64,000 nucleotides of DNA, taken from NCBI GenBank assembly GCA_964509335.1, contig CAZDXB010000010.1:3977-67976 (forward strand), given 5' to 3'. Positions 44,531-57,742 of this stretch are shown here, in pieces. The notes under the pieces are model-generated. The model saw only the letters and a program-made list of their open reading frames with translations, was not told the DNA's origin and made no database searches. The stretch comes from an uncultured Hyphomicrobiales bacterium. Its GTDB lineage: Bacteria > Bacteroidota > Ignavibacteria > Kapaibacteriales > UBA2268. A program made the translations under genes and the position numbers. Numbering within the stretch: the first letter of the stretch is position 1; each line of letters opens with the position of its first letter.

Positions 44531-46459
44531 CTATTGCCCGCCGTCCAAGCCAATATTCGCCTCGACGCCAGCCCGTATCCACCTGCCGGGCATCCAAACG
44601 TTCGCTATATCGTTATACTTTACGTCGAAAAGATTAGACGCCTCTAGGTAAAAACTGAGAACATTCCAACTAGCGAACAAACGCAAACTCGTCAAAAAAA
44701 CGGGCTTATACTCGGCTTCCTCGCCCTTGTCGTAATCGTAAAACTCGCCCGCTCGGTCTTGGAAGCTAACCTTTACAACGGCGCCGAAATCGTCCCTATA
44801 GGACAATCGACCGCCGAAATTCAACTTATGCCGCAGAAAATCCAAGGCGTAGAGCGACGAATAACCCGCGACGCTCTTCTCCAAATTTACGTAAGTATAA
44901 TTCAAACTAAGGCTCTTCAAAAAGAGATAATCGAGCGGCGGTATATTAATATCCGGCAATATCCTAACCGACGCTTCAAAACCATTCCCAATTATTTCCG
45001 TAATGTTTTCCGCTCGCCATACGGCTTCCTCGTCGGCGCCTTTCGGCTTCACCCAATCAATTATTCGCTCCCCTTCGCGTCTAAAAACGGAAACGTCGAA
45101 CGCCGCGACGGAACCAAAATATTTCGCTCCCACTTCATACGACAAAGACTCCTCCGGCTCCAAATCCGTATTGCCAACGTTCGTCGGACTGTCGTAATAA
45201 AGCTCCGTGAAGGTCGGCAGGCGCAGAGAGCGGTTAACCGTTCCGAAAAACTTAAAGCCCTCGAAAGCCTCGTAGCTAATATCCACTCCCGGATAAAACG
45301 CTATGTCAAAATCCGTATTCCAATTAACGAGAGCGCCCGCCGAAACAGCCAATCCCCGCCACAATATCGAATGCTCGGCGAATGCGGCTATGTTCTCACG
45401 CGAAGCCCGCTTATCGTATATGCCGTCTGCTTCTTCGGTTTCCTCGCCCAAGACGTTGCTCTTAATATTTTCCGAGCGGAACTCGAAGCCGGCGGAAGAA
45501 ACGCCCCCAAACCACACATAACCGAGATTCGCCGAGCCGCCGAAAACGTCCGTAATATGCCGGTTATGCCCCGAATACCAATCGGGCGGATTATCGCGAA
45601 ACAGCTGAAACACGTCCCGATTGCGCCGCCAATAAGCCGACGACCGGAACCTCAACGTGGCGCCCGCGCTATACTTTGCGCTCGCGAAATACGTTTTCAA
45701 GCGCTCGTATTGATTAGGATACTTCGCCGTGTAAAAGCTATTCGCGCCGAAGCTCTTGTCTCTCCAGCCGCCCTGCAACTCGAACTCGCCGAACGAAGCC
45801 TCGTAACCGCCGCGATAAAATACGTTCGCAGATTGAAAGTCCGTGTTCTCGATATACGGTCCCGAGCCTTTCTTCACGACTGAAACGTAATTGTCGAAAT
45901 TATCGAAATTATAAGATACGGCGGCGGCTGTCTTGTAATACTCATGCTGACCGCCGGCGAGCGAGAGCTTCGCGTTCTTCTCCTTATTCGAGCCGGTAAT
46001 AATATTAATCGCTCCGGCGAAGGCGTTCGGTCCCAAAGCTCGCGAGCCGGGTCCCTCCAAAATCTCGATTTCGAGTATATCGTCGATTTCCACCGGAATA
46101 TTCAAATTATGATGCCCCGTCTGCGGGTCGTTTACGGGGACGCCGTTCAGCAAAATCAAAGTTTGCTCGAACGAGCCGCCGCGAAGGCTAATGTCCGCTT
46201 GCGCGTCTATTCCGCCTCTCCTTCTAATATCCAAACCGCAAGCGTATTCCAATATATCGTCCAAAGACTGAGCCGGCGCGCTTTTTATCTCCTCGCGGGA
46301 AATCGTCCGCGCTATCCGCGAAGTCTCCGAGTAAAGCCGCGGCGCTCTTTTGCCGGTAACGACCACCTCGCTCGTAACGACCGAATCCGTCGCCGCGAGA
46401 GCCGTCGCCGCCGCTACCGCCAAAACAATCGCCGCCGCCAATAAAGTCCCCAATTTCAT
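44531..46459 (-). CDS. TonB-dependent outer-membrane receptor (BtuB/CirA-like size)
   Basis: Signal peptide. Plug domain with TonB-box region (DSVVTSEVVVTG). Conserved LRGG.....LLNGVP and beta-barrel. Visibly higher GC than its neighbours. Confidence 0.85.
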   Translation of the reverse strand: MKLGTLLAAAIVLAVAAATALAATDSVVTSEVVVTGKRAPRLYSETSRIARTISREEIKSAPAQSLDDILEYACGLDIRRRGGIDAQADISLRGGSFEQTLILLNGVPVNDPQTGHHNLNIPVEIDDILEIEILEGPGSRALGPNAFAGAINIITGSNKEKNAKLSLAGGQHEYYKTAAAVSYNFDNFDNYVSVVKKGSGPYIENTDFQSANVFYRGGYEASFGEFELQGGWRDKSFGANSFYTAKYPNQYERLKTYFASAKYSAGATLRFRSSAYWRRNRDVFQLFRDNPPDWYSGHNRHITDVFGGSANLGYVWFGGVSSAGFEFRSENIKSNVLGEETEEADGIYDKRASRENIAAFAEHSILWRGLAVSAGALVNWNTDFDIAFYPGVDISYEAFEGFKFFGTVNRSLRLPTFTELYYDSPTNVGNTDLEPEESLSYEVGAKYFGSVAAFDVSVFRREGERIIDWVKPKGADEEAVWRAENITEIIGNGFEASVRILPDINIPPLDYLFLKSLSLNYTYVNLEKSVAGYSSLYALDFLRHKLNFGGRLSYRDDFGAVVKVSFQDRAGEFYDYDKGEEAEYKPVFLTSLRLFASWNVLSFYLEASNLFDVKYNDIANVWMPGRWIRAGVEANIGLDGGQ

Positions 46460-46607
46460 ATTCTCTCAATTTTCTCTTTCGTCCAAAATAAGTTTGTAAA
46501 GATAAAGGATTAGAGCTAGAAAGAAAAGTTAGTTTGTTAAACTACCGTCAGTTATAGAAATTTCTGATTAGCTATTTATAAATTCGCTCATTCCTTATAT
46601 TTGTATT

Positions 46608-47387
46608 TTGGCAACGACAAATTACGAGCAAATGAAAACAAAAAAGAAATACGAAATAGGAATAGCTTTAGGCGGCGGCGGGCAAAGAGGATTCGCCCAC
46701 TTCGGCATACTGAAAGCGCTGAACGAAAAAGGCATATATCCCGATATGATATCCGGCGTCAGCGCCGGAGCCATAGCCGGCGCGTTCATAGCCGACGGCA
46801 AAGAACCGGAAGAAGCTTTCAACTTGTTAAAAAAGAACAAATTCGCCGATTTCACCAGAATAATATTCCCTATCGACGGCTTCTTCAGCCTCGACAAATT
46901 AAACGACAACCTGAAAAACTTGATTGAAGCCGACGACGTAAAGGACTTGAAACTGCCTTTCTACGCCGCGGCGACTAATTTAACCGACGGAACGGTGGAA
47001 TATTTTGACGAAGGTCCCCTTCATACTATAATCCAAGCGTCGTCTTCGATACCGGTTGTTTTCTCCCCCGTTGAAATCGACGGTAAATTATACGTTGACG
47101 GCGGCATATTCGACAACGTGCCCGTTACCCCGCTCTTGGGAAAATGTAAAAAGATAATCGCCGTCAACGTAAACCCAATGAAGAAAGCCAAAAGCATCAA
47201 AAACTTTTTGCAAGTAGCCGATAGAGTAACGCACCTTGTCGTTAACCAAACCATCAAAGACATAAAAGACAAATGCGATATATTCATCGAACCTAAAAGA
47301 ACGATAGAATATGAAATACTATCTTCCGACCATCCCGACAAACTTTTCGAAATCGGCTACGAATATTGTAAGAGTTTGGATATATAG
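46608..47387 (+). CDS. Patatin-like phospholipase
   Basis: GGG.RG oxyanion motif (LGGGGQRG). Nucleophile GVSAG (GxSxG). Catalytic DGG. Confidence 0.8.
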   Translation: MATTNYEQMKTKKKYEIGIALGGGGQRGFAHFGILKALNEKGIYPDMISGVSAGAIAGAFIADGKEPEEAFNLLKKNKFADFTRIIFPIDGFFSLDKLNDNLKNLIEADDVKDLKLPFYAAATNLTDGTVEYFDEGPLHTIIQASSSIPVVFSPVEIDGKLYVDGGIFDNVPVTPLLGKCKKIIAVNVNPMKKAKSIKNFLQVADRVTHLVVNQTIKDIKDKCDIFIEPKRTIEYEILSSDHPDKLFEIGYEYCKSLDI

Positions 47388-48922: not shown

Positions 48923-51208
48923 TTGATGGAGAGAAGCGGGGAAGAGCAAAATACGACGTTCGCCCGAGACTTAGGGCTGTTCGACGCTACGATGATAGGC
49001 GTCGGGGCGATGATAGGCGCGGGAATATTTGTGCTTACCGGCATAGCCGCCGGAGAAGCCGGCCCCGCCTCCATTGTAGCCTTCGCTTTAAACGGAGTAG
49101 TTACTTTATTAACCGCATTCTCATACGCCGAACTCGCCTCGGCAATCCCTCGCGCCGGCGGCGGATACTCCTTCGTCCGTATGGCTTTCCCCCGGGCGGT
49201 CGGTTTCGTCGCCGGATGGATGCTATGGTTCGCTTACACAGTAGCTTGTAGCCTCTACGCGCTCGGTTTCGCCGGTTACTTTTGGGAATTTTTCCTTAAA
49301 TATACTCCGAATCTTTCCGGCGGTATATTTAGCGTAATCGGGCATTCGCCTTCAATACTAATCGTAACGCTGATTATCGGAATCGCTTTCGTTTGGCTAA
49401 ACGTCCGAGGCGCCGACGTTACCGGAAGAACGGAAAATATACTGACTATGTCCAAAATCACCATTCTCGCCGTCTTCCTCTTCTTCGGAATCCTGCAAAT
49501 AACCGAAGAGCCGGCGAGAGCGGCGGAGAGCTTCGAACCCTTCTTCCCAAAAGGATTCAACGGCGTCTTAATCGCGATGGGGCTGACATTCATTGCCTTC
49601 GAAGGCTACGACTTAATAGCCACCGTAGCCGAGGAAATCAAAAATCCCGAGAAAAATATACCCAAAGCCACCTTTATTTCCTTAGCCGTTACAATCACTA
49701 TATATTTGCTGATCCTTTTCGTATCGCTCGGAGCGGTCAATCCCGGCGATTTAACTTCTTGGGAATTTCTCGGCAAATACAAAGAAACCGCCATAGTGCG
49801 AGCCGCGGAAGATTTTATGCCCTCGATTGGCGTCGTAGTTATCGTTTTCGGCGGCTTGCTATCGACAATGTCCGCCCTGAACGCCACCGTTATGTCCGCC
49901 TCACGCGTGGCTTTCTCTATGGGCAGAGACAACTGGCTACCTAAAAAAATGGCGTATATCCACCCAAAAAGGCGCACACCCCACGTCGCAATTATTGCGA
50001 CCGGATTCGTTTTATTGGCGATGGCGCTCGCTTTGCCGATTGAGACGGTCGGCTCGGCGGCGAGCTTGATATTTCTGCTGACCTTCGCTTTCGTTAACTT
50101 ATCCGTTATCGTGCTAAGAAGAAAATATCCCGAAGTCCCGCGCAAATACAGAGTCCCTTTTTATCCAATAGCTCCGATTTTGGGCTTTCTGCTCAATATT
50201 TTCCTCGCCGTCTATCAATTCAACTTCCAACCGATAGCGTGGTATATCACAATCGGATGGATTGTGCTTGGGCTGTTATTGTATTACTCCGTCTTCGAAA
50301 AGATAGCTTCCGGCTTCGAACCGAAAGTGTTGATGTCAACCCCCAAAGTAACGCTGTCCGAAAAAACTCCCGCTATAGTGGTCGCCCTTTACAACCCGAA
50401 CAACGCCCGAACCTTATTAAAACTCGCACGCTCCATCGCGAGACAAAAAAATATGCCGATAATAGCGATTAGCGTAATAGTAGTTCCGAGGCAAATGCCG
50501 ATTCACGAGGGGATGCGCTACGCCGAACAAAAGGACGAGCTATTCAACGCCGCTAAAAAATACGCCGAGGAAAACGGCTTCTCAATCGAAACCGACCTCG
50601 TAATAGCGCACGCCGCCTCCGACGGACTGCTCGAAGCAGTCGAAAGACACAACGCCGACACGCTCGTTATGGGCTGGAAGGGCTACACAAGAGCCAAAGA
50701 TAGAATGTTCGGCGAAATAGCGGACAAAATTATAAGATACGTCCCCTGCGATTTAGCGCTTCTGAAAATCGGCGAAGACGCAAGCATTGAAAACTGCCTC
50801 TTCCCCACATCCGGCGGACCAAACGCCAAACTAGCCTCGAAAATTATCGACGGATTGGCCGAAGACAGCGATATGAACATCACCGCAACTTACGTAGCGC
50901 CGGAAAATCCCGATAGCGAGCAAATCGAGTTCGGCGAGAGCAAAATCGACGAGACGCTAAATACGATGAAGAATCGCTCGAAAATAAACAAAAAGCTAAT
51001 CGAAGCGAACTTAATACCCGAAGGCATAACCGAAGCGAGCAAAAACTACGACCTCGTCGTAATCGGCGCGGCTAAAGAATCATTCTTCAGAAAAATGCTC
51101 TTCGGCGAAATACCGGAAAAAGTCGCCCGCAACTCGCCCGCCTCCGTCCTCGTCGTCAAACAATACGAAGGACTCGTAAAAACAGCGATAAAAAGGGTTA
51201 TGGGGTGA
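48923..51208 (+). CDS. APC-superfamily amino-acid permease fused to two C-terminal universal stress protein (UspA) domains
   Basis: 12-TM APC core (GAGIFVLTG, FAY.E...A.P.AGG.Y.F), about 440 aa. Then two UspA-like alpha/beta modules (TLVMGWKG, VLVVKQY). Confidence 0.8.
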   Translation: MMERSGEEQNTTFARDLGLFDATMIGVGAMIGAGIFVLTGIAAGEAGPASIVAFALNGVVTLLTAFSYAELASAIPRAGGGYSFVRMAFPRAVGFVAGWMLWFAYTVACSLYALGFAGYFWEFFLKYTPNLSGGIFSVIGHSPSILIVTLIIGIAFVWLNVRGADVTGRTENILTMSKITILAVFLFFGILQITEEPARAAESFEPFFPKGFNGVLIAMGLTFIAFEGYDLIATVAEEIKNPEKNIPKATFISLAVTITIYLLILFVSLGAVNPGDLTSWEFLGKYKETAIVRAAEDFMPSIGVVVIVFGGLLSTMSALNATVMSASRVAFSMGRDNWLPKKMAYIHPKRRTPHVAIIATGFVLLAMALALPIETVGSAASLIFLLTFAFVNLSVIVLRRKYPEVPRKYRVPFYPIAPILGFLLNIFLAVYQFNFQPIAWYITIGWIVLGLLLYYSVFEKIASGFEPKVLMSTPKVTLSEKTPAIVVALYNPNNARTLLKLARSIARQKNMPIIAISVIVVPRQMPIHEGMRYAEQKDELFNAAKKYAEENGFSIETDLVIAHAASDGLLEAVERHNADTLVMGWKGYTRAKDRMFGEIADKIIRYVPCDLALLKIGEDASIENCLFPTSGGPNAKLASKIIDGLAEDSDMNITATYVAPENPDSEQIEFGESKIDETLNTMKNRSKINKKLIEANLIPEGITEASKNYDLVVIGAAKESFFRKMLFGEIPEKVARNSPASVLVVKQYEGLVKTAIKRVMG
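51128..51208 (+). repeat. Direct repeat copy 1 (the 3-prime end of the permease-Usp gene). Partner copy at 53643..53723.
   Basis: 76/81 nt identical to 53643..53723. Both copies keep the reading frame and end at TGA. Confidence 0.85.
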
Positions 51209-51230
51209 GGTATTGTCCGTTTAAAAAAGT

Positions 51231-51265
51231 ATAAAAAAAGGGAACGCGAAAAACGCGATCCCTTT
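51231..51265 (-). terminator. Rho-independent terminator (minus strand) after the 51288..51872 gene
   Basis: Stem aaagggaacgcg / cgcgatcccttt with loop aaaaa, followed on the minus strand by TTTTTTT. Confidence 0.65.
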
Positions 51266-51287
51266 CTTGTCCGTTAGAGAAAATTAT

Positions 51288-51872
51288 TTAATTCATGATT
51301 CTATCGATTGCAAAGAGAAGCAAATCAGCGCCGCAAAGATTTGTGGAAATGTCAATGACACCTAAATCAACGCCTACACACCAACAAGCGGCATTTGCCT
51401 CGCATCTATGCCCGCAACCGCCAGTGCAACCGGAAAAATCGCCGCCGCTGTTATCGGTCGAAAAACATCTGTCGTATGATTCGGTGAAGGCTTCCAGCGG
51501 AGCGCTTTCAAACTTCTTAATTAAACCGACGACGTTTTTCTCAGCCTTTTTCATCATTTTTCCAATCTTCTCTTCGAATTCTCTCTTGCTTGCGTTCTCC
51601 ATAAAAGCGTAAACCTTCTTGCCTCGATAATTTTCAAAAGAAACGTAATATACCTTTTCCTTTTTATCGAATTTGATATCCCTCTTCAAATCTTCGGTTA
51701 CTTTTCTAAAAGCCTTGCTGATTTTATTCGCGTCAAAATTTTCAGCTAAGTACTTAACGGCTAAATACTGAGCTGGATACACCTTTTGACTTTGAATAGC
51801 GTCGCCTTTCGCGCTAGCTAAGATGGGCGTGAACATAATCGCCGCGAGCGTTAAAATAATTAGTTTTTTCAT
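51288..51872 (-). CDS. Hypothetical secreted protein with a Cys-rich C-terminal segment (start placed at MKKLIIL)
   Basis: Signal peptide MKKLIILTLAAIMFTPILASA. C-terminus C-x12-C-x3-C-x3-C-x5-C-x-C-x15-C. Confidence 0.45.
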   Translation of the reverse strand: MKKLIILTLAAIMFTPILASAKGDAIQSQKVYPAQYLAVKYLAENFDANKISKAFRKVTEDLKRDIKFDKKEKVYYVSFENYRGKKVYAFMENASKREFEEKIGKMMKKAEKNVVGLIKKFESAPLEAFTESYDRCFSTDNSGGDFSGCTGGCGHRCEANAACWCVGVDLGVIDISTNLCGADLLLFAIDRIMN

Positions 51873-51907
51873 AAAACTTCTCCTTTTGGTGTTAAACATT
51901 AAACAAA

Positions 51908-52786
51908 TTATATATCAAAACTCAACGAAAAACATAACGATTGCTCGAGCTGTCTTGTCGCCGAATAATACTTGTCGTATAAAAGACGCATTGAATAATC
52001 TATCTCAAATATATCGTAACGGAGCGAAGAGGAGCCTAAAACGCTAACTCTCGAGTTCTTCAAACTAGTAAACTGGTCTTTTTTGCCTAACGCGTTCGCG
52101 CTAAACGACAGAGAATAAGTTAAATCCTCCACTATTTCTCTATCGTACTCTAGTTCAAACGTCGCGCTATATCCTAATTCCTTAGCCGAATTGACCCTTA
52201 TTTCTTCTCCCTTTTTTAAAGTAAAATCGTCGGTATAAGTCTCCTGATAAGAATAACCGACGCCGTATGTCAAGGATAATCTATTAGAACCGTTTTCCGA
52301 AACGGAGTAATGCTTCTGTCCAATGAATAATGTATTGTAAACAAATAGCGGGTCCATAAAACCTGTCTTCCTATCCCCTATTTTGCCTTCCCCCATTTCG
52401 GTCTCCGCCGTGGTTTCGAAAAAGAGTCTTACTTTAGGAACGTTCCAAATTGTCATAGACGGACATATACTTAATATAAAATCGTCTTGCGTTTTGATCG
52501 GCAACTCCTTTTTATAATGGCTTTGCCCGTAATTCATATACAAATCGACTTTAAAACCAAAGGTCTCGCCTTCCAAATCCAACTTTGATTCCAGCTTAGA
52601 ATTCCACTGCAAACTCTCGTTTTCGTTGCCGGCAGAACTTTCTCCGGAAAAAATCAAACCGGCGGAAGGATTAAATCGAAAATAAACGTCTAATCCTTTT
52701 TCTTCTTCCTCTTCGGCTTTCGCAAAACCGCTAAGCAAGAAGCAAAGCATTAAAGCAAACGTTGTATTTATTTTTGACAACCTCAT
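51908..52786 (-). CDS. Hypothetical outer-membrane beta-barrel protein
   Basis: Signal peptide MRLSKINTTFALMLCFLLSGFAKA. Alternating amphipathic beta-strand pattern. Confidence 0.45.
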   Translation of the reverse strand: MRLSKINTTFALMLCFLLSGFAKAEEEEEKGLDVYFRFNPSAGLIFSGESSAGNENESLQWNSKLESKLDLEGETFGFKVDLYMNYGQSHYKKELPIKTQDDFILSICPSMTIWNVPKVRLFFETTAETEMGEGKIGDRKTGFMDPLFVYNTLFIGQKHYSVSENGSNRLSLTYGVGYSYQETYTDDFTLKKGEEIRVNSAKELGYSATFELEYDREIVEDLTYSLSFSANALGKKDQFTSLKNSRVSVLGSSSLRYDIFEIDYSMRLLYDKYYSATRQLEQSLCFSLSFDI

Positions 52787-52987
52787 AATACAAATATTAA
52801 CAATTATTCATTTTGAAACAAATTTTTATTTAAAAATGAACAGAGTATTAATGTTTTGTAATCAAAACGTTTGCGCAAAAGTATCCTTGCCTTTTAATTG
52901 TCGTAAAAATTTGGACGTTCTATTAAAAAAAACGGAACCCCCAAATAAAATTGAGAGTTCCGCTTAAAAACCATCGCGCGTCGAAAA

Positions 52988-53554
52988 TTACATCTTCACG
53001 AACCTCTTTCCGATTTTCTCGTCGCCGGAATCCAACATTATATAATAAACCCCCGGCGCTAAATCCGAAACGTCCATTCGATAGACGTTCTTTCCTCTTT
53101 GCAAAGATACGCCGAGTTTTTGGCGAACAGTCTCGCCCAAAGAATTATATATATTAACGGCGGTTTCCGTATAAACTTCGCCCGATTTAATTTCCAAATT
53201 TACAATGTCGCTTACGGGATTGGGATTGACGCTCAAAGACAAACCGGAGACAACTCCGCTTTCAACTTTCGCCGGAACGCCCTCGCCCTGAGTTAAAGTA
53301 ATTGTCTTGTTTATTTCGGCAACCTCGAACTTCTCGTAATCGGGAATCTCGCCCGTCCAAGTTACCACAATCGAATCGACGCTCGCGCAATCGCCGAGCC
53401 CGTAATACAGCCTAGCCGGTCTTTGCGACCTGACTCCGTTGCCGGCGGTTACCTCTTGAGTAAACTTTTTATCGCCGTTCCAATACTTCAACGTTTCCGC
53501 TTGGGAAACAACCGTTAACGCAAGAAACGCCAATAAAATCTTCTTTATCATCAT
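52988..53554 (-). CDS. Secreted protein with a T9SS C-terminal sorting domain (type A CTD)
   Basis: Signal peptide. C-terminal about 80 aa carrying the Por-secretion CTD signature (...NIYNSLGETV...GKNVYRMDVSDLAPGVYYIMLDSGDEKIGKRFVKM). Confidence 0.7.
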   Translation of the reverse strand: MMIKKILLAFLALTVVSQAETLKYWNGDKKFTQEVTAGNGVRSQRPARLYYGLGDCASVDSIVVTWTGEIPDYEKFEVAEINKTITLTQGEGVPAKVESGVVSGLSLSVNPNPVSDIVNLEIKSGEVYTETAVNIYNSLGETVRQKLGVSLQRGKNVYRMDVSDLAPGVYYIMLDSGDEKIGKRFVKM

Positions 53555-53642
53555 CCAATATCTCCTAAGATAAACTAAAACTTAACAATGAAATTAATCA
53601 GTTTTGAAAATAAAACTTTTCTATGAAATAGCAAAAAGGCTA

Positions 53643-53723
53643 CGCAACTCGCCTACCTCCGTCCTCGTCGTCAAACAATACGAAGGACTCGTAAAATCAG
53701 CAACAAAAAGGGTTATGGGGTGA
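53643..53723 (+). repeat. Direct repeat copy 2: an orphan in-frame 3-prime gene fragment homologous to the end of the permease-Usp gene
   Basis: Encodes RNSPTSVLVVKQYEGLVKSATKRVMG*, versus RNSPASVLVVKQYEGLVKTAIKRVMG* at the end of the intact gene. Confidence 0.85.
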
Positions 53724-53766
53724 TTTTTATCATAAGGGTTGTAAGACTAGAAAATAAAGTTTATAA

Positions 53767-54885
53767 TTATGCGTGTGAAACAGTTATTTTGTATCGTTTA
53801 TGTAATATTTCGGATAAAGAAATCGCATTCGACCAATTCTCATTATTTTTTATCCAATAATATGATTGAGGCGGTTTTAATTCAGAACCGATTAAATGGT
53901 TGAGCTGAGTTAATGGAATAGGCGCGGTATATCTATTAAAATTCTTAAAAAATATCGAATAAATCTCCTTAGTATCCTTTGTATATTGAAAATATTCTTT
54001 CTCCGAACAAGCAATTTTTTCTTTGTACTTATCCCAAATTAATGTAGGGGGATTTTTCTCTATAGCGTCGATTGTAACATATCCATGTATCTCTTGACTC
54101 GGCTTAGATGAATATAATACCACTTTACAGCCCTTTAGATTTGCATTAAAATATTTGCGAATTTCTACGGTCTTTTCGCCAGACTTAATTTTATCAAAAT
54201 AATCGGGCTTAATACTCATTACTATCCCATTTTGTATATCGTCGTGATACTTAATAAAACGAGAGTTTAATTTAGGCAATTTATTGATAATATTATTCCA
54301 AACAGTATTAAAAGACGCTCTATTAATTAATTCTCGGTCGCCGTTACGATATTCTTTTGTATATTTCGATACATTGTCAAAACCGAAAGATTGGAAAAAA
54401 TCTCTTTTTTCGCTCCAAAGACTTTCAGGAAACGTAAAGAAGATTTGCTTAGCATGTCTCTTTGCGTTGTTAGCCATTAAAGTAAAGAATAATTCGCCTA
54501 AATTATAATTTTGATAATCCTTGTCGATATGCAAATGACAAAATTTAGATAACTCGCCTAGTTTAAGAACGGCAGTGGCAATCGGCAAATTGTCAATATA
54601 ACCAACATAGGCAATTCTTTCGCCGTTTTTAATACCCGGTTTTACTTTATCTTTAAACCAAGTCTTAATATTGGGATAATCAACCTCGTGTCTTTCAATT
54701 AACGCCGCCATATTCAATAATGAATCGTGCTTGAAGTCGATATTATCTTTATCAATAGACTCAATAGTCAAGGTCAACTCTTCTGAAAATAATTCGTAGT
54801 TATTTATTGTTTTCATTTTCTTTCTATTCATCATTCTTTCTCCAATCTTTAAAATATTTAGATAATTGAAGTTCTTGTTCTCCAT
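53767..54885 (-). CDS. GNAT-like acetyltransferase domain fused to a C-terminal ASCH (PUA-like) domain. True start probably the internal Met at about 54816.
   Basis: ASCH signature MSIKPDYFDKIKSGEKTVEIRK (GxKxxExR). N-terminal region with a GNAT-like core (IAYVGYID...LGELFF). Lies in an AT-rich island. Confidence 0.55.
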   Translation of the reverse strand: MENKNFNYLNILKIGERMMNRKKMKTINNYELFSEELTLTIESIDKDNIDFKHDSLLNMAALIERHEVDYPNIKTWFKDKVKPGIKNGERIAYVGYIDNLPIATAVLKLGELSKFCHLHIDKDYQNYNLGELFFTLMANNAKRHAKQIFFTFPESLWSEKRDFFQSFGFDNVSKYTKEYRNGDRELINRASFNTVWNNIINKLPKLNSRFIKYHDDIQNGIVMSIKPDYFDKIKSGEKTVEIRKYFNANLKGCKVVLYSSKPSQEIHGYVTIDAIEKNPPTLIWDKYKEKIACSEKEYFQYTKDTKEIYSIFFKNFNRYTAPIPLTQLNHLIGSELKPPQSYYWIKNNENWSNAISLSEILHKRYKITVSHA

Positions 54886-56116
54886 AACTTGGTTTTTTAT
54901 CTTCGTTCCATTCGTCGAATTTAGACATACGATAAAATTTTAATTTTGCCAATCTCTCTCCGTCCGCTAAAGTTACGTCAACATTATGTCCTCTAACTTC
55001 GAAAATTAAAGGTGTGCCATTTTTCCCGTCATCTCTATGTAAACCAAAATACGGATGCACAAAGCCGGCGTAATGAATTCTCATTTCGCCTAGAGATTCG
55101 TCGATTGCCCTACAATAAACCGCTACTCCTTCAGGCATCGCTATTCTTTCTTTTGACCTTATAATATAAAATTTATCTTTTACTATTTTTAATCTATTGT
55201 TTTTATCAGATTCTACAATATCCCAAAAATCTTCAGGTTTATGTTCTTTTCCAATTAAATCAATAAATTTATCCTCATTATCCTCATTATCGTCTTTCTT
55301 TGAAATAAACGCAGTTGCTTTTTTCCCAACAATGTCAGTTTTAGTTGTATCTACAGATAAATATCCAAGACCATCCTTGCTTCCAATTAAAACATTATTA
55401 AGGAAATCTTCGTCTTTTATTTCAGAATCTTCTGGTTTCCCATAGAAAAATCTTAATTGCGATAATGTCTGATCAGATCTTACTTTTATATTAAAACTTA
55501 TGGGGATAACTTCAAGATACAACTCGCCGGTTGAATCCTTTAAATTCTCCGACTCAAATTCTTCATACTGAGATTCGCCGTCAACTATTAATCGAGCTAG
55601 TACGTCTAATCTTCCAGTTGAGCTTTTCGCTGTCGCTTGACCGTATATATTTTTTAATTTCGCAGTAAGTCTTTCCTTTAATTTAAAAACATAGCATTCC
55701 CCTGCGTATAATTGATAATGTTCATCTTCATTATTCTCATATCTGTCAGAAAGTTCACGATTATTAAGGATTCTTCTATAAGCCTCTTTCCCAAACGGCT
55801 TTATTGACCCTTTTTTCATTTTCCAACATTCATCAGACAATCTCAAATCTACCGATGACTCGTGCCAATCATCCGCCCATTCCTTTTTATCCTCATATTT
55901 TTTTTGGTCGCTTTCTTTTGTAGTAATATCAAAATTGCTTATATAACCGTCGTTATGAAGTTCCTCAAGTTGGGTATGCGATAAAATACCCGGTAACCAA
56001 TGGTTTTCCTCCCAAGGATGTTTTGCCATCTTCTTCCTAAAAAATATTTTTTTTAAACTTTTAACAAAAGATACGAATTTCATAGCAATAAACCAACTTT
56101 TTTCACGATATTTCAA
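54824..56116 (-). CDS. 2-prime-deoxycytidine 5-prime-triphosphate deaminase family protein (DCD, PF06559-like; tandem dUTPase-fold domains). True start probably the internal Met at about 56029.
   Basis: VDLRL... and GRLDVLARLI (compare E. coli Dcd VDLRLG.. and GRSSLARLGL). dUTPase-fold motifs AGFVHPYFG and TPLIFEVRG in the C-terminal half. AT-rich codon usage unlike the neighbours. Confidence 0.55.
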   Translation of the reverse strand: MKYREKSWFIAMKFVSFVKSLKKIFFRKKMAKHPWEENHWLPGILSHTQLEELHNDGYISNFDITTKESDQKKYEDKKEWADDWHESSVDLRLSDECWKMKKGSIKPFGKEAYRRILNNRELSDRYENNEDEHYQLYAGECYVFKLKERLTAKLKNIYGQATAKSSTGRLDVLARLIVDGESQYEEFESENLKDSTGELYLEVIPISFNIKVRSDQTLSQLRFFYGKPEDSEIKDEDFLNNVLIGSKDGLGYLSVDTTKTDIVGKKATAFISKKDDNEDNEDKFIDLIGKEHKPEDFWDIVESDKNNRLKIVKDKFYIIRSKERIAMPEGVAVYCRAIDESLGEMRIHYAGFVHPYFGLHRDDGKNGTPLIFEVRGHNVDVTLADGERLAKLKFYRMSKFDEWNEDKKPSYGEQELQLSKYFKDWRKNDE

Positions 56117-56200
56117 CTCAATAGTAACTCGCTGACATACAACTAATTACTATTCTCAAATTTAGAATTGCGAAAATGCATAGTAATTCGTAATTGAATA

Positions 56201-57742
56201 TCACTCCCACTCAATCGTTCCCGGCGGCTTGCTCGTTACGTCGTAAACGACGCGGTTGATTCCGGATATTTCGTTGACGATTCTGTCGCTCGCCTTCGCC
56301 AAAACGTCGTAGGGCATATTGAACCAATCGGCGGTCATCCCGTCCACGCTCGTAACCGCCCGCAAGGCGCAGACGCATTCGTATGTGCGCTCGTCGCCCA
56401 TAACGCCGACGCTCTTCACCGGCAACAACACCGCGAACGCCTGCCATATATCGTTATAAAGCCCCGCCGAGCGTATTTCTTCTATAAATATATCGTCGGC
56501 GCGACGCAAAATATCCAGCCGCTCCTTCGTTACCTCGCCGAGTATCCTAATAGCCAAGCCGGGACCGGGAAAAGGATGCCGCTCGATAAACCACTTCGGA
56601 ACGCCAAGCTCAGCGCCCACGGCTCTCACCTCGTCCTTGAACAGCTCTCTGAACGGTTCCAAGAGCTTCAGATTCATTCGCTCCGGCAAACCGCCGACGT
56701 TGTGATGCGACTTTATCGTAGCCGAAGGTCCCTTGACCGACACCGATTCGATTACGTCGGGATACAGCGTCCCCTGCGCCAGCCATTGAACGTCCGCGAG
56801 CGATTCGGCTTCCTTCTCGAACGCCTCTATAAATTTCGCCCCGATTATTTTGCGCTTCTTCTCTGGGTCGGCGACGCCCGATAGCTCGCTCAAAAACAAA
56901 TCCGACGCGTCCACGAAATCGACGGGAATATCGAACGACTCGCGAAATAGCTTTACAATCATTTCGCTCTCCTTCAAACGCATAACGCCCGTATCGACGT
57001 GAACGCAATGAAGCCTGTCGCCGATAGCCTCGTGAAGCAATACCGCCGCGACGGTTGAATCTACGCCGCCGCTCAAAGCTAAAATAACTTTTTCGTCGCC
57101 GACTTTCTCCCTGATTTCCTCTTTTTTGCTCTCGGCGAAGGAAGCCGCGTTCCAAGTCCCCTTGCAATCGCAAATGTTTCTGACGAAGTTATTTAATATC
57201 TTCCGCCCCTCGACCGTGTGATGCACTTCGGGATGAAACTGCACGCCGAAATTCATTTTATCGCTCGACCTGACGGCGCAAACGGGCGAATTTGCGGAAT
57301 AAGCGATAATCTCAAAGCCGTCCGGCGGCTCCACTAGCGCGTCGCCGTGGCTCATCCATACGATTGAATTAGGCTTTACGCCGGAAAACAAATCATCGTC
57401 GGAATCTATATATAATTCCGCCCTGCCGTATTCCCTGCGCGCCGCTTTATCCACTTTTCCGCCGAGCTGATAAGCGAGAAGTTGCAAACCGTAGCAAATC
57501 CCCAAAACGGGAACGCCCAAATCGAAAACGTCGAACGAAGGCAACGGAGCATCCTCGGCGTAAACGCTCGAAGGACCGCCCGAAAGGATAAGCCCGTTCG
57601 GCTCTAAACTTAACAATTCCTCTTTTGAAATATTATACGGATAAATTTCGCCGTAAACTCCGCTCTCTCGGACTTTTCGGGCTATCAATTGGGTGTATTG
57701 AGAGCCGAAGTCCAATACGATAATTTTCTCGGTAAGTTCCAT
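56201..57742 (-). CDS. guaA: GMP synthase (glutamine-hydrolysing)
   Basis: N-terminal GATase (ILSGGPSSV, catalytic Cys in GICYG). ATP-pyrophosphatase SGGVDS. Conserved C-terminal KPPGTIEWE. 513 aa. Confidence 0.95.
   Translation of the reverse strand: MELTEKIIVLDFGSQYTQLIARKVRESGVYGEIYPYNISKEELLSLEPNGLILSGGPSSVYAEDAPLPSFDVFDLGVPVLGICYGLQLLAYQLGGKVDKAARREYGRAELYIDSDDDLFSGVKPNSIVWMSHGDALVEPPDGFEIIAYSANSPVCAVRSSDKMNFGVQFHPEVHHTVEGRKILNNFVRNICDCKGTWNAASFAESKKEEIREKVGDEKVILALSGGVDSTVAAVLLHEAIGDRLHCVHVDTGVMRLKESEMIVKLFRESFDIPVDFVDASDLFLSELSGVADPEKKRKIIGAKFIEAFEKEAESLADVQWLAQGTLYPDVIESVSVKGPSATIKSHHNVGGLPERMNLKLLEPFRELFKDEVRAVGAELGVPKWFIERHPFPGPGLAIRILGEVTKERLDILRRADDIFIEEIRSAGLYNDIWQAFAVLLPVKSVGVMGDERTYECVCALRAVTSVDGMTADWFNMPYDVLAKASDRIVNEISGINRVVYDVTSKPPGTIEWE

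What the first reader, a model, noticed from the sequence alone, without database searches (positions are those of the whole stretch)
53724..56200. AT-rich 2.5-kb island carrying a dCTP-deaminase-family gene and a GNAT-ASCH fusion: a candidate cytosine-N4-directed nucleotide modification or depletion module
The segment is about 33% GC against 45-52% for the flanking guaA and permease genes. It begins immediately after an att-like repeat and ends at a sharp compositional boundary before guaA, which points to horizontal acquisition. It holds exactly two tightly packed, co-oriented genes. The first is a 430-aa protein with two tandem dUTPase-fold halves; it has the VDLRL and GR(L)xxLARL motifs and the AGFVHPYFG / TPLIFEVRG motifs of the DCD (dCTP deaminase) family, but lacks the P-loop kinase domain of the known defensive dCTP deaminases. 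The second fuses a GNAT-like acyltransferase core to an ASCH domain with a textbook GxKxxExR signature. ASCH proteins of the E. coli YqfB type are N4-acylcytidine amidohydrolases. So the proteins would all converge on the exocyclic N4/C4 position of cytosine nucleotides: deamination, acylation and deacylation. That fits either a nucleotide-depletion anti-phage system of a new architecture or a (d)C N4-acyl modification/salvage module. As far as I know this DCD plus GNAT-ASCH pairing has not been described.
Basis: partly seen in the sequence, partly recalled or inferred. Interest (0 to 1): 0.78.

Follow-up and report, generated by a model that had tools for sequence, protein, structure and literature searches.

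The report
Mobile dCTP-deaminase plus GNAT-ASCH gene pair
An AT-rich two-gene cassette, a double-domain dCTP-deaminase-like enzyme with an acetyltransferase-ASCH fusion protein, recurs as a fixed pair in many unrelated bacteria and looks like an uncatalogued toxin/regulator or anti-phage module, though nobody has tested it.

Summary
Two overlapping minus-strand genes (54824-56029 and 53767-54831) at 32.7% GC sit between guaA (about 55% GC) and a displaced fragment of a permease gene.

- **Gene 2** is a GNAT domain fused to an ASCH domain of the ZmASCH type, not the YqfB type.

The pair is a self-contained cassette. It is present in 78 species genomes from many phyla. It is always lower in GC than its flanks, and no third gene is conserved next to it.

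Coupling is essentially obligate:
- 60 of 60 intact DCD genes have an intact GNAT-ASCH gene downstream.
- GNAT-ASCH persists with a truncated or absent DCD in 9 of 69 loci.
- One single-chain DCD-GNAT-ASCH fusion exists.

The GNAT and ASCH halves match the two components of PADLOC candidate PDC-M11. A lambdoid phage record annotates these as the GevT toxin and GevA antitoxin. The DCD partner is in no defence library searched, and no paper found describes it.

The "att-like repeat" is real, but it brackets the neighbouring 2.5-kb segment, not this island.

My best reading is a conflict cassette in which DCD is the harmful effector (dCTP to dUTP) and GNAT-ASCH controls it. Function is inferred, not shown.

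The parts
54824..56029 (-). Gene 1: bimodular dCTP-deaminase-like protein, 401 aa. ATG at 56029 with AGGAAG upstream. The listed 430-aa TTG ORF, which runs to 56116, is an over-extension.
55385..56029 (-). N-terminal half of gene 1 (residues 1-215). It holds a conserved PWxxxWxPG leader plus the first dUTPase-fold module, with S136, R140 and E173 as equivalents of E. coli Dcd S111, R115 and E138.
   Evidence: Alignment with E. coli Dcd fetched from NC_000913.3. In the last block I corrected the register by eye. R140 and E173 are invariant and S136 is at least 90% conserved in 55 homologues.
54827..55384 (-). C-terminal half of gene 1 (residues 216-401). This is the second dUTPase-fold module, with the invariant DExxGEMRIHYAGFxxPxFG and LxFEVR motifs. 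E344 is kept, but E311 and E315 stand in place of the Ser and Arg.
   Evidence: Pfam DCD_C covers residues 284-422 of the 430-aa ORF.
53767..54831 (-). Gene 2: GNAT-ASCH fusion protein ('GA'), 354 aa. ATG at 54831 with GGAG 8-9 nt upstream.
   Evidence: P0001 is 354 aa and 100% identical. AF2 model pLDDT 92.1. 64 clusters at 90% identity and 93 clusters at 50% identity with E<=1e-30.
54256..54792 (-). GNAT-fold domain of gene 2 (residues about 14-192). Invariant residues are Y52, W58, R72, K96, C98, H99 (KFCHL on strand beta4), G112, P135, W139, Y161, R162 and E167. The beta4-alpha3 loop reads QNYNLG where GNATs usually have Q/RxxGxG/A.
53776..54234 (-). ASCH domain of gene 2 (residues about 200-352), ZmASCH type. 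The GxKxxExR octapeptide is conserved (K220, E223 and R225 invariant, G218 at least 90%). Y240 and S323 are equivalents of ZmASCH Tyr47 and Ser128.
54824..54831 (-). 8-nt overlap between the stop of gene 1 (TAG at 54826-54824) and the start of gene 2. This suggests translational coupling.
   Evidence: Sequence read directly. In 59 of 69 related loci the projected start of GA lies within -46 to +31 nt of the DCD stop.
56030..56200 (-). 171-nt AT-rich spacer between the guaA stop and gene 1. It is the presumed promoter region of the cassette and contains a 12-nt inverted repeat at 56142-56153 / 56180-56191.
   Evidence: repeat I16. No minus-strand (coding-strand) sigma-70-type promoter match and no terminator were found in the spacer, so its function is not shown.
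53643..53723 (+). Orphan 81-nt copy of the permease gene's 3' end, including its TGA. It lies 43 nt beyond the stop of gene 2. It is context, not part of the cassette.
   Evidence: 94% identical to 51128-51208. The independent Logan assembly contig L079 breaks inside it.

Best explanation
This is a self-contained, horizontally mobile two-gene conflict cassette, of the toxin/regulator or anti-phage abortive type.

**Gene 1.** It encodes a bimodular dUTPase-fold dCTP deaminase. When active it would convert dCTP to dUTP, starving DNA replication of dCTP and flooding it with dUTP. I take this to be the harmful effector.

**Gene 2.** It encodes a single chain that joins the acetyltransferase domain of the GevT/PDC-M11A toxin type to the ASCH domain of the GevA/PDC-M11B antitoxin type. 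I take it to be the obligate controller of the deaminase. It is made by translational coupling, probably in a complex with the deaminase. It would hold the deaminase in check, by binding or acetylation, until its ASCH domain meets a foreign or abnormal single-stranded or modified nucleic acid.

**Shown here**
- The folds, the conserved catalytic-type residues and the obligate pairing.
- The mobility signature.
- The homology of both halves of gene 2 to PDC-M11/GevAT components.
- The asymmetric pattern of loss.

**Inferred**
- That DCD really deaminates dCTP.
- That DCD is toxic.
- That GNAT-ASCH neutralises or regulates it.
- That phage infection is the trigger.
For: 1. **Obligate, reciprocal coupling.** With GA as anchor, DCD lies immediately upstream on the same strand in 60 of 69 genome loci that have room: 58 intact and 2 split. 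With DCD as anchor, 60 of 60 loci with room have an intact GA directly downstream. Three further DCD look-ups show a 349-359 aa gene with no Pfam hit directly downstream, presumably the same gene.
2. **Tight physical link.** The genes overlap by 8 nt here. One 724-aa DCD-GNAT-ASCH single-chain protein, P0187, exists on a 21-kb contig.
3. **No third gene.** Only these two families are conserved across loci. The nearest neighbours fall into 148 Pfam families, none found in more than 3 loci.
4. **Mobility.** The pair has lower GC than its flanks in 62 of 62 loci, median -8.6 points. It occurs in about a dozen phyla. Neighbours include transposases, a resolvase, TA pairs, RM methylases, a DRT reverse transcriptase, a TIR-pAgo and CapP. 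One copy abuts the terminase/portal module of a prophage.
5. **Kinship with a conflict system.** The GA halves hit PDC-M11A and PDC-M11B. They also hit the same PHROGs as GevT and GevA. Those two genes are annotated toxin and antitoxin at the rexAB position of a lambdoid phage.
6. **Asymmetric loss.** DCD is truncated or absent next to an intact GA in 9 of 69 loci. GA is never missing next to an intact DCD (0 of 60). Fisher p = 0.0035 (examples). This is the pattern expected when DCD is the costly partner and GA its antidote.
Against: - There is no experimental datum for any member.
- To my knowledge the bimodular DCD family has only a structural-genomics structure and no published enzymology.
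- PADLOC has no model that hits the DCD. The immediate neighbours are mostly ordinary genes, so defence-island enrichment was not demonstrated quantitatively.
- The asymmetry test compares two different collections (MAG genomes against metagenome contigs), and the DCD-anchored set is the 80 best matches. Assembly quality could contribute.
- The single fusion protein could be an assembly frameshift.
- The cassette is almost absent from phage and plasmid collections. It is on one viral contig, and there are no full-length GA hits in 50,697 phage or 72,556 plasmid records.
- How a GNAT-ASCH protein would restrain a deaminase is unknown.
Confidence: 0.45

Rival explanations
1. Cytosine-N4 writer/eraser module. 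The GNAT domain N4-acetylates cytosine in dCTP, DNA or RNA. The ASCH domain reads or removes that acetyl group. The DCD-fold enzyme handles the same C4 position of the nucleotide pool, for example by deaminating dCTP or clearing N4-acyl-dCTP. The purpose would be self/non-self marking or poisoning of invader nucleic acid.
For: The characterised activities of relatives of all three modules meet at cytosine N4/C4.
- ASCH proteins, including ZmASCH, remove ac4C from tRNA in vitro (bioRxiv 10.64898/2026.02.27.708502). The catalytic octapeptide residues K, E and R are invariant in GA.
- From my own knowledge, the known nucleobase acetyltransferases TmcA and NAT10 use GNAT domains.
- Iyer et al. 2013, as cited in PMC7641849, proposed DNA-base acetylation for GNAT-EVE + ASCH operons.
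- A toxin (GNAT) and antitoxin (ASCH) pair, as annotated for GevT/GevA, fits writer/eraser logic.
- The fusion and overlap would also fit enzymes that share a substrate.
Against: - ZmASCH, the nearest solved relative, is inactive on free ac4C and did not lower ac4C in vivo.
- Writer and eraser on one chain would be a futile cycle unless regulated.
- Deamination and acetylation of the same amine compete rather than follow one another.
- The asymmetric loss of DCD is not predicted by a pathway model.
Confidence: 0.2
2. GA is the toxin: a GNAT toxin that acetylates aminoacyl-tRNA or another RNA, targeted by its ASCH domain. The DCD-fold protein is its antitoxin or sensor rather than an enzyme of consequence.
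For: GNAT domains commonly act as toxins, and GA's GNAT is related to that of the annotated toxin GevT. The upstream gene of a two-gene TA operon is usually the antitoxin. ZmASCH-type ASCH domains bind single-stranded RNA (PMC5615036).
Against: An intact GA persists where DCD is truncated or absent (9 of 69 loci, including L021 and L032). That should be lethal if GA were an unopposed toxin. GA already carries the GevA-type antitoxin domain in cis. A 401-aa protein with conserved catalytic-site residues is an unlikely simple antitoxin.
Confidence: 0.12
3. Ordinary nucleotide metabolism. Gene 1 is simply this organism's dCTP deaminase for dTTP synthesis, and gene 2 is an unrelated or regulatory neighbour. 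The low GC is incidental.
For: Gene 1 carries all the motifs of the alphaproteobacterial bimodular DCD, which is assumed to be housekeeping. Here it sits next to guaA, a nucleotide-synthesis gene. In L083-L085 the flavin-dependent thymidylate synthase gene thyX (Pfam Thy1) lies 2 kb away.
Against: - The NCBIfam equivalog score is well below its cut-off: 183.6 against 283 bits.
- The cassette was found in only 78 loci (78 contigs) in a collection of 185,579 species genomes, spread across phyla.
- It is always lower in GC than the host, with no conserved synteny.
- It decays often.
- It is strictly tied to a protein built from PDC-M11 components.
- guaA adjacency is unique to this window.
Confidence: 0.08

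Closest known systems
PDC-M11 (PADLOC phage-defence candidate), annotated GevT toxin / GevA antitoxin in Escherichia phage PhiR47_2 (PV340567.1). It corresponds to the GNAT-EVE + ASCH operons of Bell, Wolf & Koonin 2020 (PMC7641849) and Iyer et al. 2013.
   Same: GA's ASCH half hits PDC-M11B (2.4e-26) and phrog_3136, exactly as GevA does. GA's GNAT half hits PDC-M11A (3.1e-6) and phrog_13728, as the GevT N-terminus does. The overall order, N-terminal helix, GNAT, linker, PUA-like barrel, is collinear with GevT. Both are mobile: GevAT sits at the rexAB position of a lambdoid prophage.
   Different: Here the two components are one polypeptide. The C-terminal domain of GevT (phrog_30943, the EVE-like part) is absent. 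An unrelated 401-aa DCD-fold enzyme is the obligate partner. Profile-profile similarity to full-length GevT is weak (E 0.018, probability 2.6%). No DCD gene is annotated in the 6.4-kb GevAT region of the phage. None of the plasmid or phage places matched by the ASCH half has a dCTP deaminase among the features annotated under the match.
Bimodular 2'-deoxycytidine 5'-triphosphate deaminase (Pfam PF06559 + PF22569; NCBIfam PRK07559; PDB 2r9q, Agrobacterium tumefaciens)
   Different: It scores below the equivalog cut-off and has a conserved extra N-terminal leader. It is sporadic and AT-rich rather than lineage-wide, and it is always followed by GNAT-ASCH.
Defensive dCTP deaminases (Tal et al. 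2022; DcdV of Vibrio cholerae, Hsueh et al. 2022). Cited from my own knowledge; not read here.
   Same: The proposed outcome is the same: depletion of deoxycytidine nucleotides to stop phage DNA synthesis, with a toxic enzyme kept in check by a partner.
   Different: From my own knowledge, those enzymes are zinc-dependent cytidine/dCMP-deaminase-fold proteins with a P-loop kinase-like domain. This one has the metal-independent trimeric dUTPase/Dcd fold. No PADLOC model, including those for dCTP deaminase, hits it.
ZmASCH (ZMO0922, PDB 5guq), ASCH family 2
   Different: ZmASCH is a stand-alone 148-aa protein with weak Mg-dependent ssRNA nuclease activity. Here the domain is fused to a GNAT and tied to a DCD.
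YqfB-type ASCH N4-acylcytidine amidohydrolases
   Same: Same superfamily fold. The Lys and Arg of the octapeptide are present.
   Different: YqfB-type proteins are about 103-aa stand-alone enzymes with Thr in the octapeptide (GxKxxTxR). This domain has Glu and groups with ZmASCH, which does not hydrolyse free ac4C.

Membership tests
Bimodular dCTP deaminase (PF06559 DCD_N + PF22569 DCD_C; PDB 2r9q) | Both Pfam domains score above their gathering scores, in order | tested here: met
   DCD_N 89.2 bits (cut-off 21.4); DCD_C 102.2 bits (cut-off 22)
Bimodular dCTP deaminase (PF06559 DCD_N + PF22569 DCD_C; PDB 2r9q) | Two tandem dUTPase-fold modules superposable on 2r9q | tested here: met
Bimodular dCTP deaminase (PF06559 DCD_N + PF22569 DCD_C; PDB 2r9q) | Equivalents of the E. 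coli Dcd catalytic residues Ser111, Arg115 and Glu138 | tested here: met
   S136, R140 and E173 in the N-half are invariant or at least 90% conserved in 55 homologues. The C-half keeps only the Glu, E344.
Bimodular dCTP deaminase (PF06559 DCD_N + PF22569 DCD_C; PDB 2r9q) | Orthology to the NCBIfam equivalog PRK07559 (score at least 283 bits) | tested here: not met
   183.6 bits. It is a distinct clade of the family, not the equivalog group.
Bimodular dCTP deaminase (PF06559 DCD_N + PF22569 DCD_C; PDB 2r9q) | Catalyses dCTP to dUTP + NH3 | not testable with these tools
   Needs an enzyme assay.
Defensive dCTP deaminase (nucleotide-depletion defence; PADLOC/DefenseFinder type) | Match to the system's HMMs; zinc cytidine-deaminase-fold domain with an N-terminal kinase-like domain | tested here: not met
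   No PADLOC family hits at E<=1. Pfam shows only dUTPase-fold DCD domains.
Defensive dCTP deaminase (nucleotide-depletion defence; PADLOC/DefenseFinder type) | Protects against phage by depleting dCTP | not testable with these tools
   Needs phage challenge and dNTP measurement.
ASCH domain, family 2 (ZmASCH type) | Pfam ASCH above its gathering score, and the PUA-like beta-barrel fold | tested here: met
ASCH domain, family 2 (ZmASCH type) | GxKxxExR octapeptide and the cleft residues equivalent to ZmASCH Tyr47 and Ser128 | tested here: met
   K220, E223, R225, Y240 and S323 are invariant and G218 is at least 90% conserved in 60 sequences. Residue roles come from PMC5615036.
YqfB-type N4-acylcytidine amidohydrolase | Thr in the octapeptide (GxKxxTxR); small stand-alone protein of about 103 aa | tested here: not met
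   Glu at that position is invariant. The domain is part of a 354-aa fusion. Motif classes come from the bioRxiv preprint.
GNAT acyltransferase superfamily | Sequence-profile match at the curated threshold | tested here: inconclusive
   Pfam Acetyltransf_10 scores 22.7 bits, just under its 23.6-bit cut-off. PHROG acetyltransferase phrog_13728 scores 1.6e-9.
GNAT acyltransferase superfamily | GNAT fold (beta1-alpha1-alpha2-beta2-4-alpha3-beta5-alpha4-beta6-7) | tested here: met
GNAT acyltransferase superfamily | Acyl-CoA pyrophosphate-binding motif Q/R-x-x-G-x-G/A after beta4 | tested here: inconclusive
   The loop reads Q-N-Y-N-L-G (family consensus R-x-x-N-L-G). The first and last positions are kept, and the middle Gly is replaced by Asn. 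Shorter GNAT-ASCH relatives P0306 and P0328 have the canonical RRKGYG / QRRGYG.
PDC-M11 / GevAT (GNAT-EVE toxin + ASCH antitoxin) | Component B (ASCH) HMM match | tested here: met
   PDLC04425 2.4e-26 over residues 221-349. GevA itself scores 6.8e-52.
PDC-M11 / GevAT (GNAT-EVE toxin + ASCH antitoxin) | Component A full-length HMM match (GNAT plus the C-terminal PUA/EVE-like domain) | tested here: not met
   Only the GNAT part matches: residues 61-176 to profile positions 170-290 of 486, at 3.1e-6. GevT matches end to end at 2e-133. hhalign of the two families is weak.
PDC-M11 / GevAT (GNAT-EVE toxin + ASCH antitoxin) | Two adjacent separate genes, A then B, with no other obligate partner | tested here: not met
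   A-like and B-like parts are fused in one gene, and a DCD gene is the obligate partner.

The most novel reading that the evidence does not exclude
The cassette would be the first immune or addiction module built on the dUTPase-fold dCTP deaminase. Its GNAT-ASCH partner would be a fused writer/eraser of N4-acetylcytosine. The system would then act through acetylation, deacetylation and deamination of the same exocyclic amine of (deoxy)cytidine in the nucleotide pool or in invader nucleic acid. By extension, the widespread GevT/GevA (PDC-M11) pairs would be acetyl-base writer/eraser toxin-antitoxins, analogous to DarT/DarG.
Probability: 0.15. Interest if true: 0.9.

Novelty: new variant of a known kind. 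Interest (0 to 1): 0.64.

Why it matters
**Nucleotide depletion.** This is an established anti-phage strategy, but to my knowledge the known dCTP-directed enzymes all belong to the zinc deaminase fold. A strictly conserved, mobile pairing of the unrelated dUTPase-fold dCTP deaminase with a GNAT-ASCH protein would add an independent evolutionary route to that strategy.

**A handle on GNAT-PUA/ASCH modules.** These modules (PDC-M11, GevAT) are widespread in prophages, and I found no held paper characterising them biochemically. The cassette could give a first functional handle on them.

**Testability.** The system is small, at 2.3 kb and two genes. It has clear catalytic residues to mutate and a clear prediction: gene 1 is toxic alone and is rescued by gene 2. 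That makes it directly testable.

**ASCH function.** It also bears on what bacterial ASCH domains do, given recent evidence that they erase N4-acetylcytidine.

Tried and rejected
1. **The repeat as att site of the island.** Rejected. The 81-nt repeat pairs with 51128-51208 and brackets the neighbouring segment. No repeat flanks the guaA side, and there is no tRNA in the window.
2. **A third conserved gene.** All-against-all clustering of 4,044 ORFs from 78 loci found only DCD and GA, plus antisense ghosts of them.
3. **Membership in known defence systems.** PADLOC gives nothing for DCD and only PDC-M11 parts for GA.
4. **YqfB-type amidohydrolase.** Rejected on the octapeptide and on the nearest structure.
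5. **Carriage on phages or plasmids.** tblastn of GA finds only ASCH-domain matches in 31 phage and 39 plasmid records, none full length. One IMG/VR contig carries the cassette.
6. **Literature.** Ten full-text searches found no paper on a DCD-ASCH/GNAT pairing, on PF06559, or on GevAT. PDC-M11 appears only as a passing mention. Iyer et al. 2013 is not held.
7. **Regulatory RNA or clear signals.** No Rfam hit at E<=0.1 in 50500-57000, and no convincing sigma-70 promoter or terminator around the cassette. Bacteroidota-type promoters are not covered by that scan.
8. **Naming the organism.** Cluster look-ups return no names. A T9SS sorting domain next door suggests an FCB-group bacterium such as Ignavibacteria or Bacteroidota, and Ignavibacteria MAGs are among the closer cassette relatives (P0073; L075 at 46-52% identity). 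The closest GA locus, L001 at 55% identity, is labelled uncultured Hyphomicrobiales.
9. **Defence-island enrichment.** Only the nearest neighbours were scanned, in aggregate. The result is heterogeneous and gives no statistic, so I do not claim enrichment.


Full report
**What is in the window.**
- Region 53724-56200 contains two co-oriented minus-strand ORFs and nothing else of size.
- The mechanical ORFs are 430 and 372 aa. Family N-termini and the database entries P0065 (401 aa) and P0001 (354 aa) place the real starts at ATG 56029 and ATG 54831.
- The second gene therefore starts 8 nt before the stop of the first.
- GC of the pair is 32.7%, against 43.3% for the rest of the window. The jump at guaA is abrupt, from 0.32 to 0.557 across position 56200.
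- On the other side the contrast is weaker, because 51.6-53.0 kb is itself 34-40% GC.

**The repeat.**
Copy 53643-53723 is 94% identical to 51128-51208, the last 81 nt of the amino-acid-permease/Usp gene, stop codon included.
- It therefore brackets 51209-53642. That segment carries three minus-strand genes for secreted or outer-membrane-type proteins: one DUF6488-like, one DUF3078-like and one T9SS-tailed.
- There is no copy on the guaA side, no tRNA and no integrase.
- The simplest reading is that the cassette once lay directly between the permease gene and guaA, and a 2.5-kb piece carrying its own copy of the permease 3' end was later inserted or duplicated.
- An independent assembly of the same sequence (Logan contig L079) ends inside the repeat.

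**Gene 1.**
- Pfam finds DCD_N (3.4e-25) and DCD_C (3e-29).
- NCBIfam finds the bimodular dCTP deaminase model PRK07559 end to end, but at 183.6 bits, below its 283-bit equivalog cut-off.
- The only solved relative by sequence is 2r9q from Agrobacterium tumefaciens (4e-29).
- I aligned it to E. coli Dcd, taken from NC_000913.3. The N-terminal half keeps equivalents of Ser111, Arg115 and Glu138, namely S136, R140 and E173. The C-terminal half keeps the Glu (E344) but has Glu at the Ser and Arg positions.
- E173, R140 and E344 are invariant and S136 is at least 90% conserved across the 55 sequences.
- The protein is therefore a plausible active deaminase of a distinct clade of the bimodular family. 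Activity itself is inferred.

**Gene 2.**
- In the GxKxxExR octapeptide, K220, E223 and R225 are invariant in 60 homologues and G218 is at least 90% conserved. The equivalents of ZmASCH's nucleic-acid-cleft residues Tyr47 and Ser128 are also invariant.
- This is the Glu ('GKER') class, not the Thr class of YqfB.
  - ZmASCH binds single-stranded nucleic acid and has weak RNase activity (PMC5615036).
  - It does not hydrolyse free ac4C.
  - A 2026 preprint nevertheless reports that every ASCH protein tested removes ac4C from tRNA in vitro.
- The CoA-pyrophosphate loop reads QNYNLG rather than Q/RxxGxG/A. An invariant K-F-C-H-L sits on strand beta4.

**The pair is a conserved cassette.**
- A scan of one genome per species, 185,579 species in all, found 78 loci encoding GA. 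The phyla include Acidobacteriota, Bacteroidota, Ignavibacteria, Planctomycetota, Myxococcota, Desulfobacterota, Verrucomicrobiota, Latescibacterota and others.
- In 60 of the 69 loci with room, a DCD homologue lies immediately upstream on the same strand.
- In the reverse direction, 80 metagenome loci and one viral contig were retrieved with the DCD profile. All 60 that had an intact DCD and room downstream carry an intact GA.
- Three DCD look-ups with gene calls show a 349-359 aa gene with no Pfam hit directly downstream, presumably the same gene.
- Clustering all ORFs of the 78 loci leaves only these two families conserved. The nearest neighbours fall into 148 Pfam families, none present in more than three loci.
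- The cassette has lower GC than its flanks in 62 of 62 loci, with a median of -8.6 points and a range of -2.4 to -25.
- An exhaustive HMMER search counts 93 clusters at 50% identity with E<=1e-30. It also finds one 724-aa protein, P0187, that is DCD, GNAT and ASCH in a single chain on a 21-kb contig.

**Relationship to known systems.**
- PADLOC has no model for the DCD. It assigns the ASCH half to PDC-M11B (2.4e-26) and the GNAT half weakly to PDC-M11A (3.1e-6).
- tblastn against phage genomes shows the ASCH half matching a gene of lambdoid coliphages. In PhiR47_2 (PV340567.1) that gene is annotated 'GevA antitoxin'. It sits next to 'GevT toxin', between cI and kil, which is the rexAB position.
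- GevT and GevA are full-length PDC-M11A and PDC-M11B (2e-133 and 7e-52).
- GA's GNAT and the GevT N-terminus hit the same PHROG, phrog_13728. GA's ASCH and GevA hit the same two PHROGs.
- The two families are collinear but only weakly similar by profile-profile comparison (E 0.018).
- These are the GNAT-EVE + ASCH operons that Bell, Wolf and Koonin (PMC7641849) describe as predicted toxin-antitoxin or conflict systems of prophages. Iyer et al. 2013, a paper I could not read here, proposed DNA-base acetylation for them.
- I found no paper describing a DCD partner.

**Clues to roles.**
- Among loci anchored on an intact GA, DCD is truncated or absent in 9 of 69. Examples are L032, which keeps only the first ~45 codons, and L021, which has none.
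- Among loci anchored on an intact DCD, GA is never missing (0 of 60). Fisher p = 0.0035.
- The two sets come from different collections, so this is suggestive rather than proof. It is nonetheless the pattern expected if DCD is the costly or toxic partner and GA its keeper. It argues against GA being an unopposed toxin.
- Neighbours include a resolvase with a second DCD/dUTPase-like gene (L080), transposases, PIN-Phd toxin-antitoxin pairs, RM methylases, a DRT reverse transcriptase, a TIR-pAgo and CapP-like proteins.
- In the one viral contig the cassette abuts the lambda-type terminase, portal and protease genes at a prophage edge.
- Most neighbours are ordinary genes, however, and I did not obtain a defence-island statistic.

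**Mechanism, and how sure I am.**
- I commit to a conflict cassette in which the DCD-fold enzyme is the effector (dCTP to dUTP, arresting DNA synthesis).
- The translationally coupled GNAT-ASCH protein restrains or licenses it. The ASCH domain would be the nucleic-acid-sensing or editing part, and the GNAT the acyl-transfer part.
- My confidence is about 0.45 for this overall picture and much lower for any detail of the control step.
The chemistry is coherent, and the GevT/GevA toxin/antitoxin annotation fits writer/eraser logic. However, the closest ASCH relative is the least active on ac4C, and a pathway model does not predict the loss asymmetry.
- GA as toxin (0.12) and plain housekeeping (0.08) fit the data less well.

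**Novelty.**
- The GNAT-plus-ASCH association and the bimodular DCD fold are each known.
- The new element is their strict, mobile, phylum-crossing pairing, with GNAT and ASCH fused and the EVE-like domain gone. It is absent from PADLOC 2.0 and from every paper I could search.
- I therefore rate it a new variant of a known kind. It is of clear interest as a compact, testable candidate system.

Noticed in passing
window 51128-53723: An 81-nt direct repeat of the permease gene's 3' end (94% identical) brackets a 2.5-kb lower-GC segment. The segment holds three minus-strand genes: a DUF6488-like Cys-rich small protein, a DUF3078-like putative outer-membrane protein, and a UnbV/ASPIC protein with a T9SS sorting tail. 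It looks like an insertion or duplication that regenerated the permease 3' end. No integrase is present.
   Followed up: partly
L087 (PV340567.1, Escherichia phage PhiR47_2) 1944-3372: GevT toxin and GevA antitoxin sit between cI and kil, the rexAB position. They are exactly PADLOC PDC-M11A and PDC-M11B. GevT has no Pfam hit. Its family is large (at least 1,631 proteins at E<=1e-10, mostly Enterobacterales, Vibrio and Aeromonas) and is annotated only as 'N-acetyltransferase'. I found no paper on it.
   Followed up: partly
L088 6001-8175 (Logan SRR22808038 contig, protein P0187): A single 724-aa ORF fuses DCD, GNAT and ASCH. It is either a genuine fusion or an assembly frameshift. Only one instance was seen.
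   Followed up: partly
L089 7977-16820 (IMGVR_UViG_3300009873_002608): This is the only viral-collection contig with the cassette. The pair lies between host-like genes (BlaI/BlaR1, peptidase S51) and a lambda-type terminase large subunit, portal and S49 protease, so it sits at a prophage edge.
   Followed up: partly
L080 3483-5740 (ENA ctg94835l): Divergently transcribed from the cassette is a 238-aa single-module DCD/dUTPase-like gene, then small unknown genes and a resolvase. A faint nucleoside deoxyribosyltransferase hit lies downstream. This may be a nucleotide-metabolism conflict islet.
   Followed up: no
L106 5601-6620: A second, distant bimodular DCD paralogue (28% identical to the window protein) lies about 500 nt downstream of the DCD-GA cassette.
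   Followed up: no
L032 9562-10014 and L021 8581-11062: These are decayed cassettes. L032 keeps only the first ~45 codons of DCD, fused to unrelated sequence, ahead of an intact GA. L021 has an intact GA with no DCD and a kinase-like gene on the opposite strand upstream.
   Followed up: yes
proteins P0305, P0306, P0328: Other GNAT-ASCH architectures exist. Two are short fusions of 272-294 aa with a canonical RRKGYG / QRRGYG CoA motif. One is a 566-aa ASCH-GNAT-...-ASCH protein. PHROG phrog_11553 (278 aa) may be a phage-borne GNAT-ASCH fusion.
   Followed up: no
window 46384-46783 and 51418-51448: A GC-rich 31-nt repeat family (CCGCCGC...CGCCGCCGC) has three copies at 46.4-46.8 kb and a weaker fourth copy inside the 51288-51899 ORF. 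They are probably Gly/Cys-rich coding repeats.
   Followed up: no
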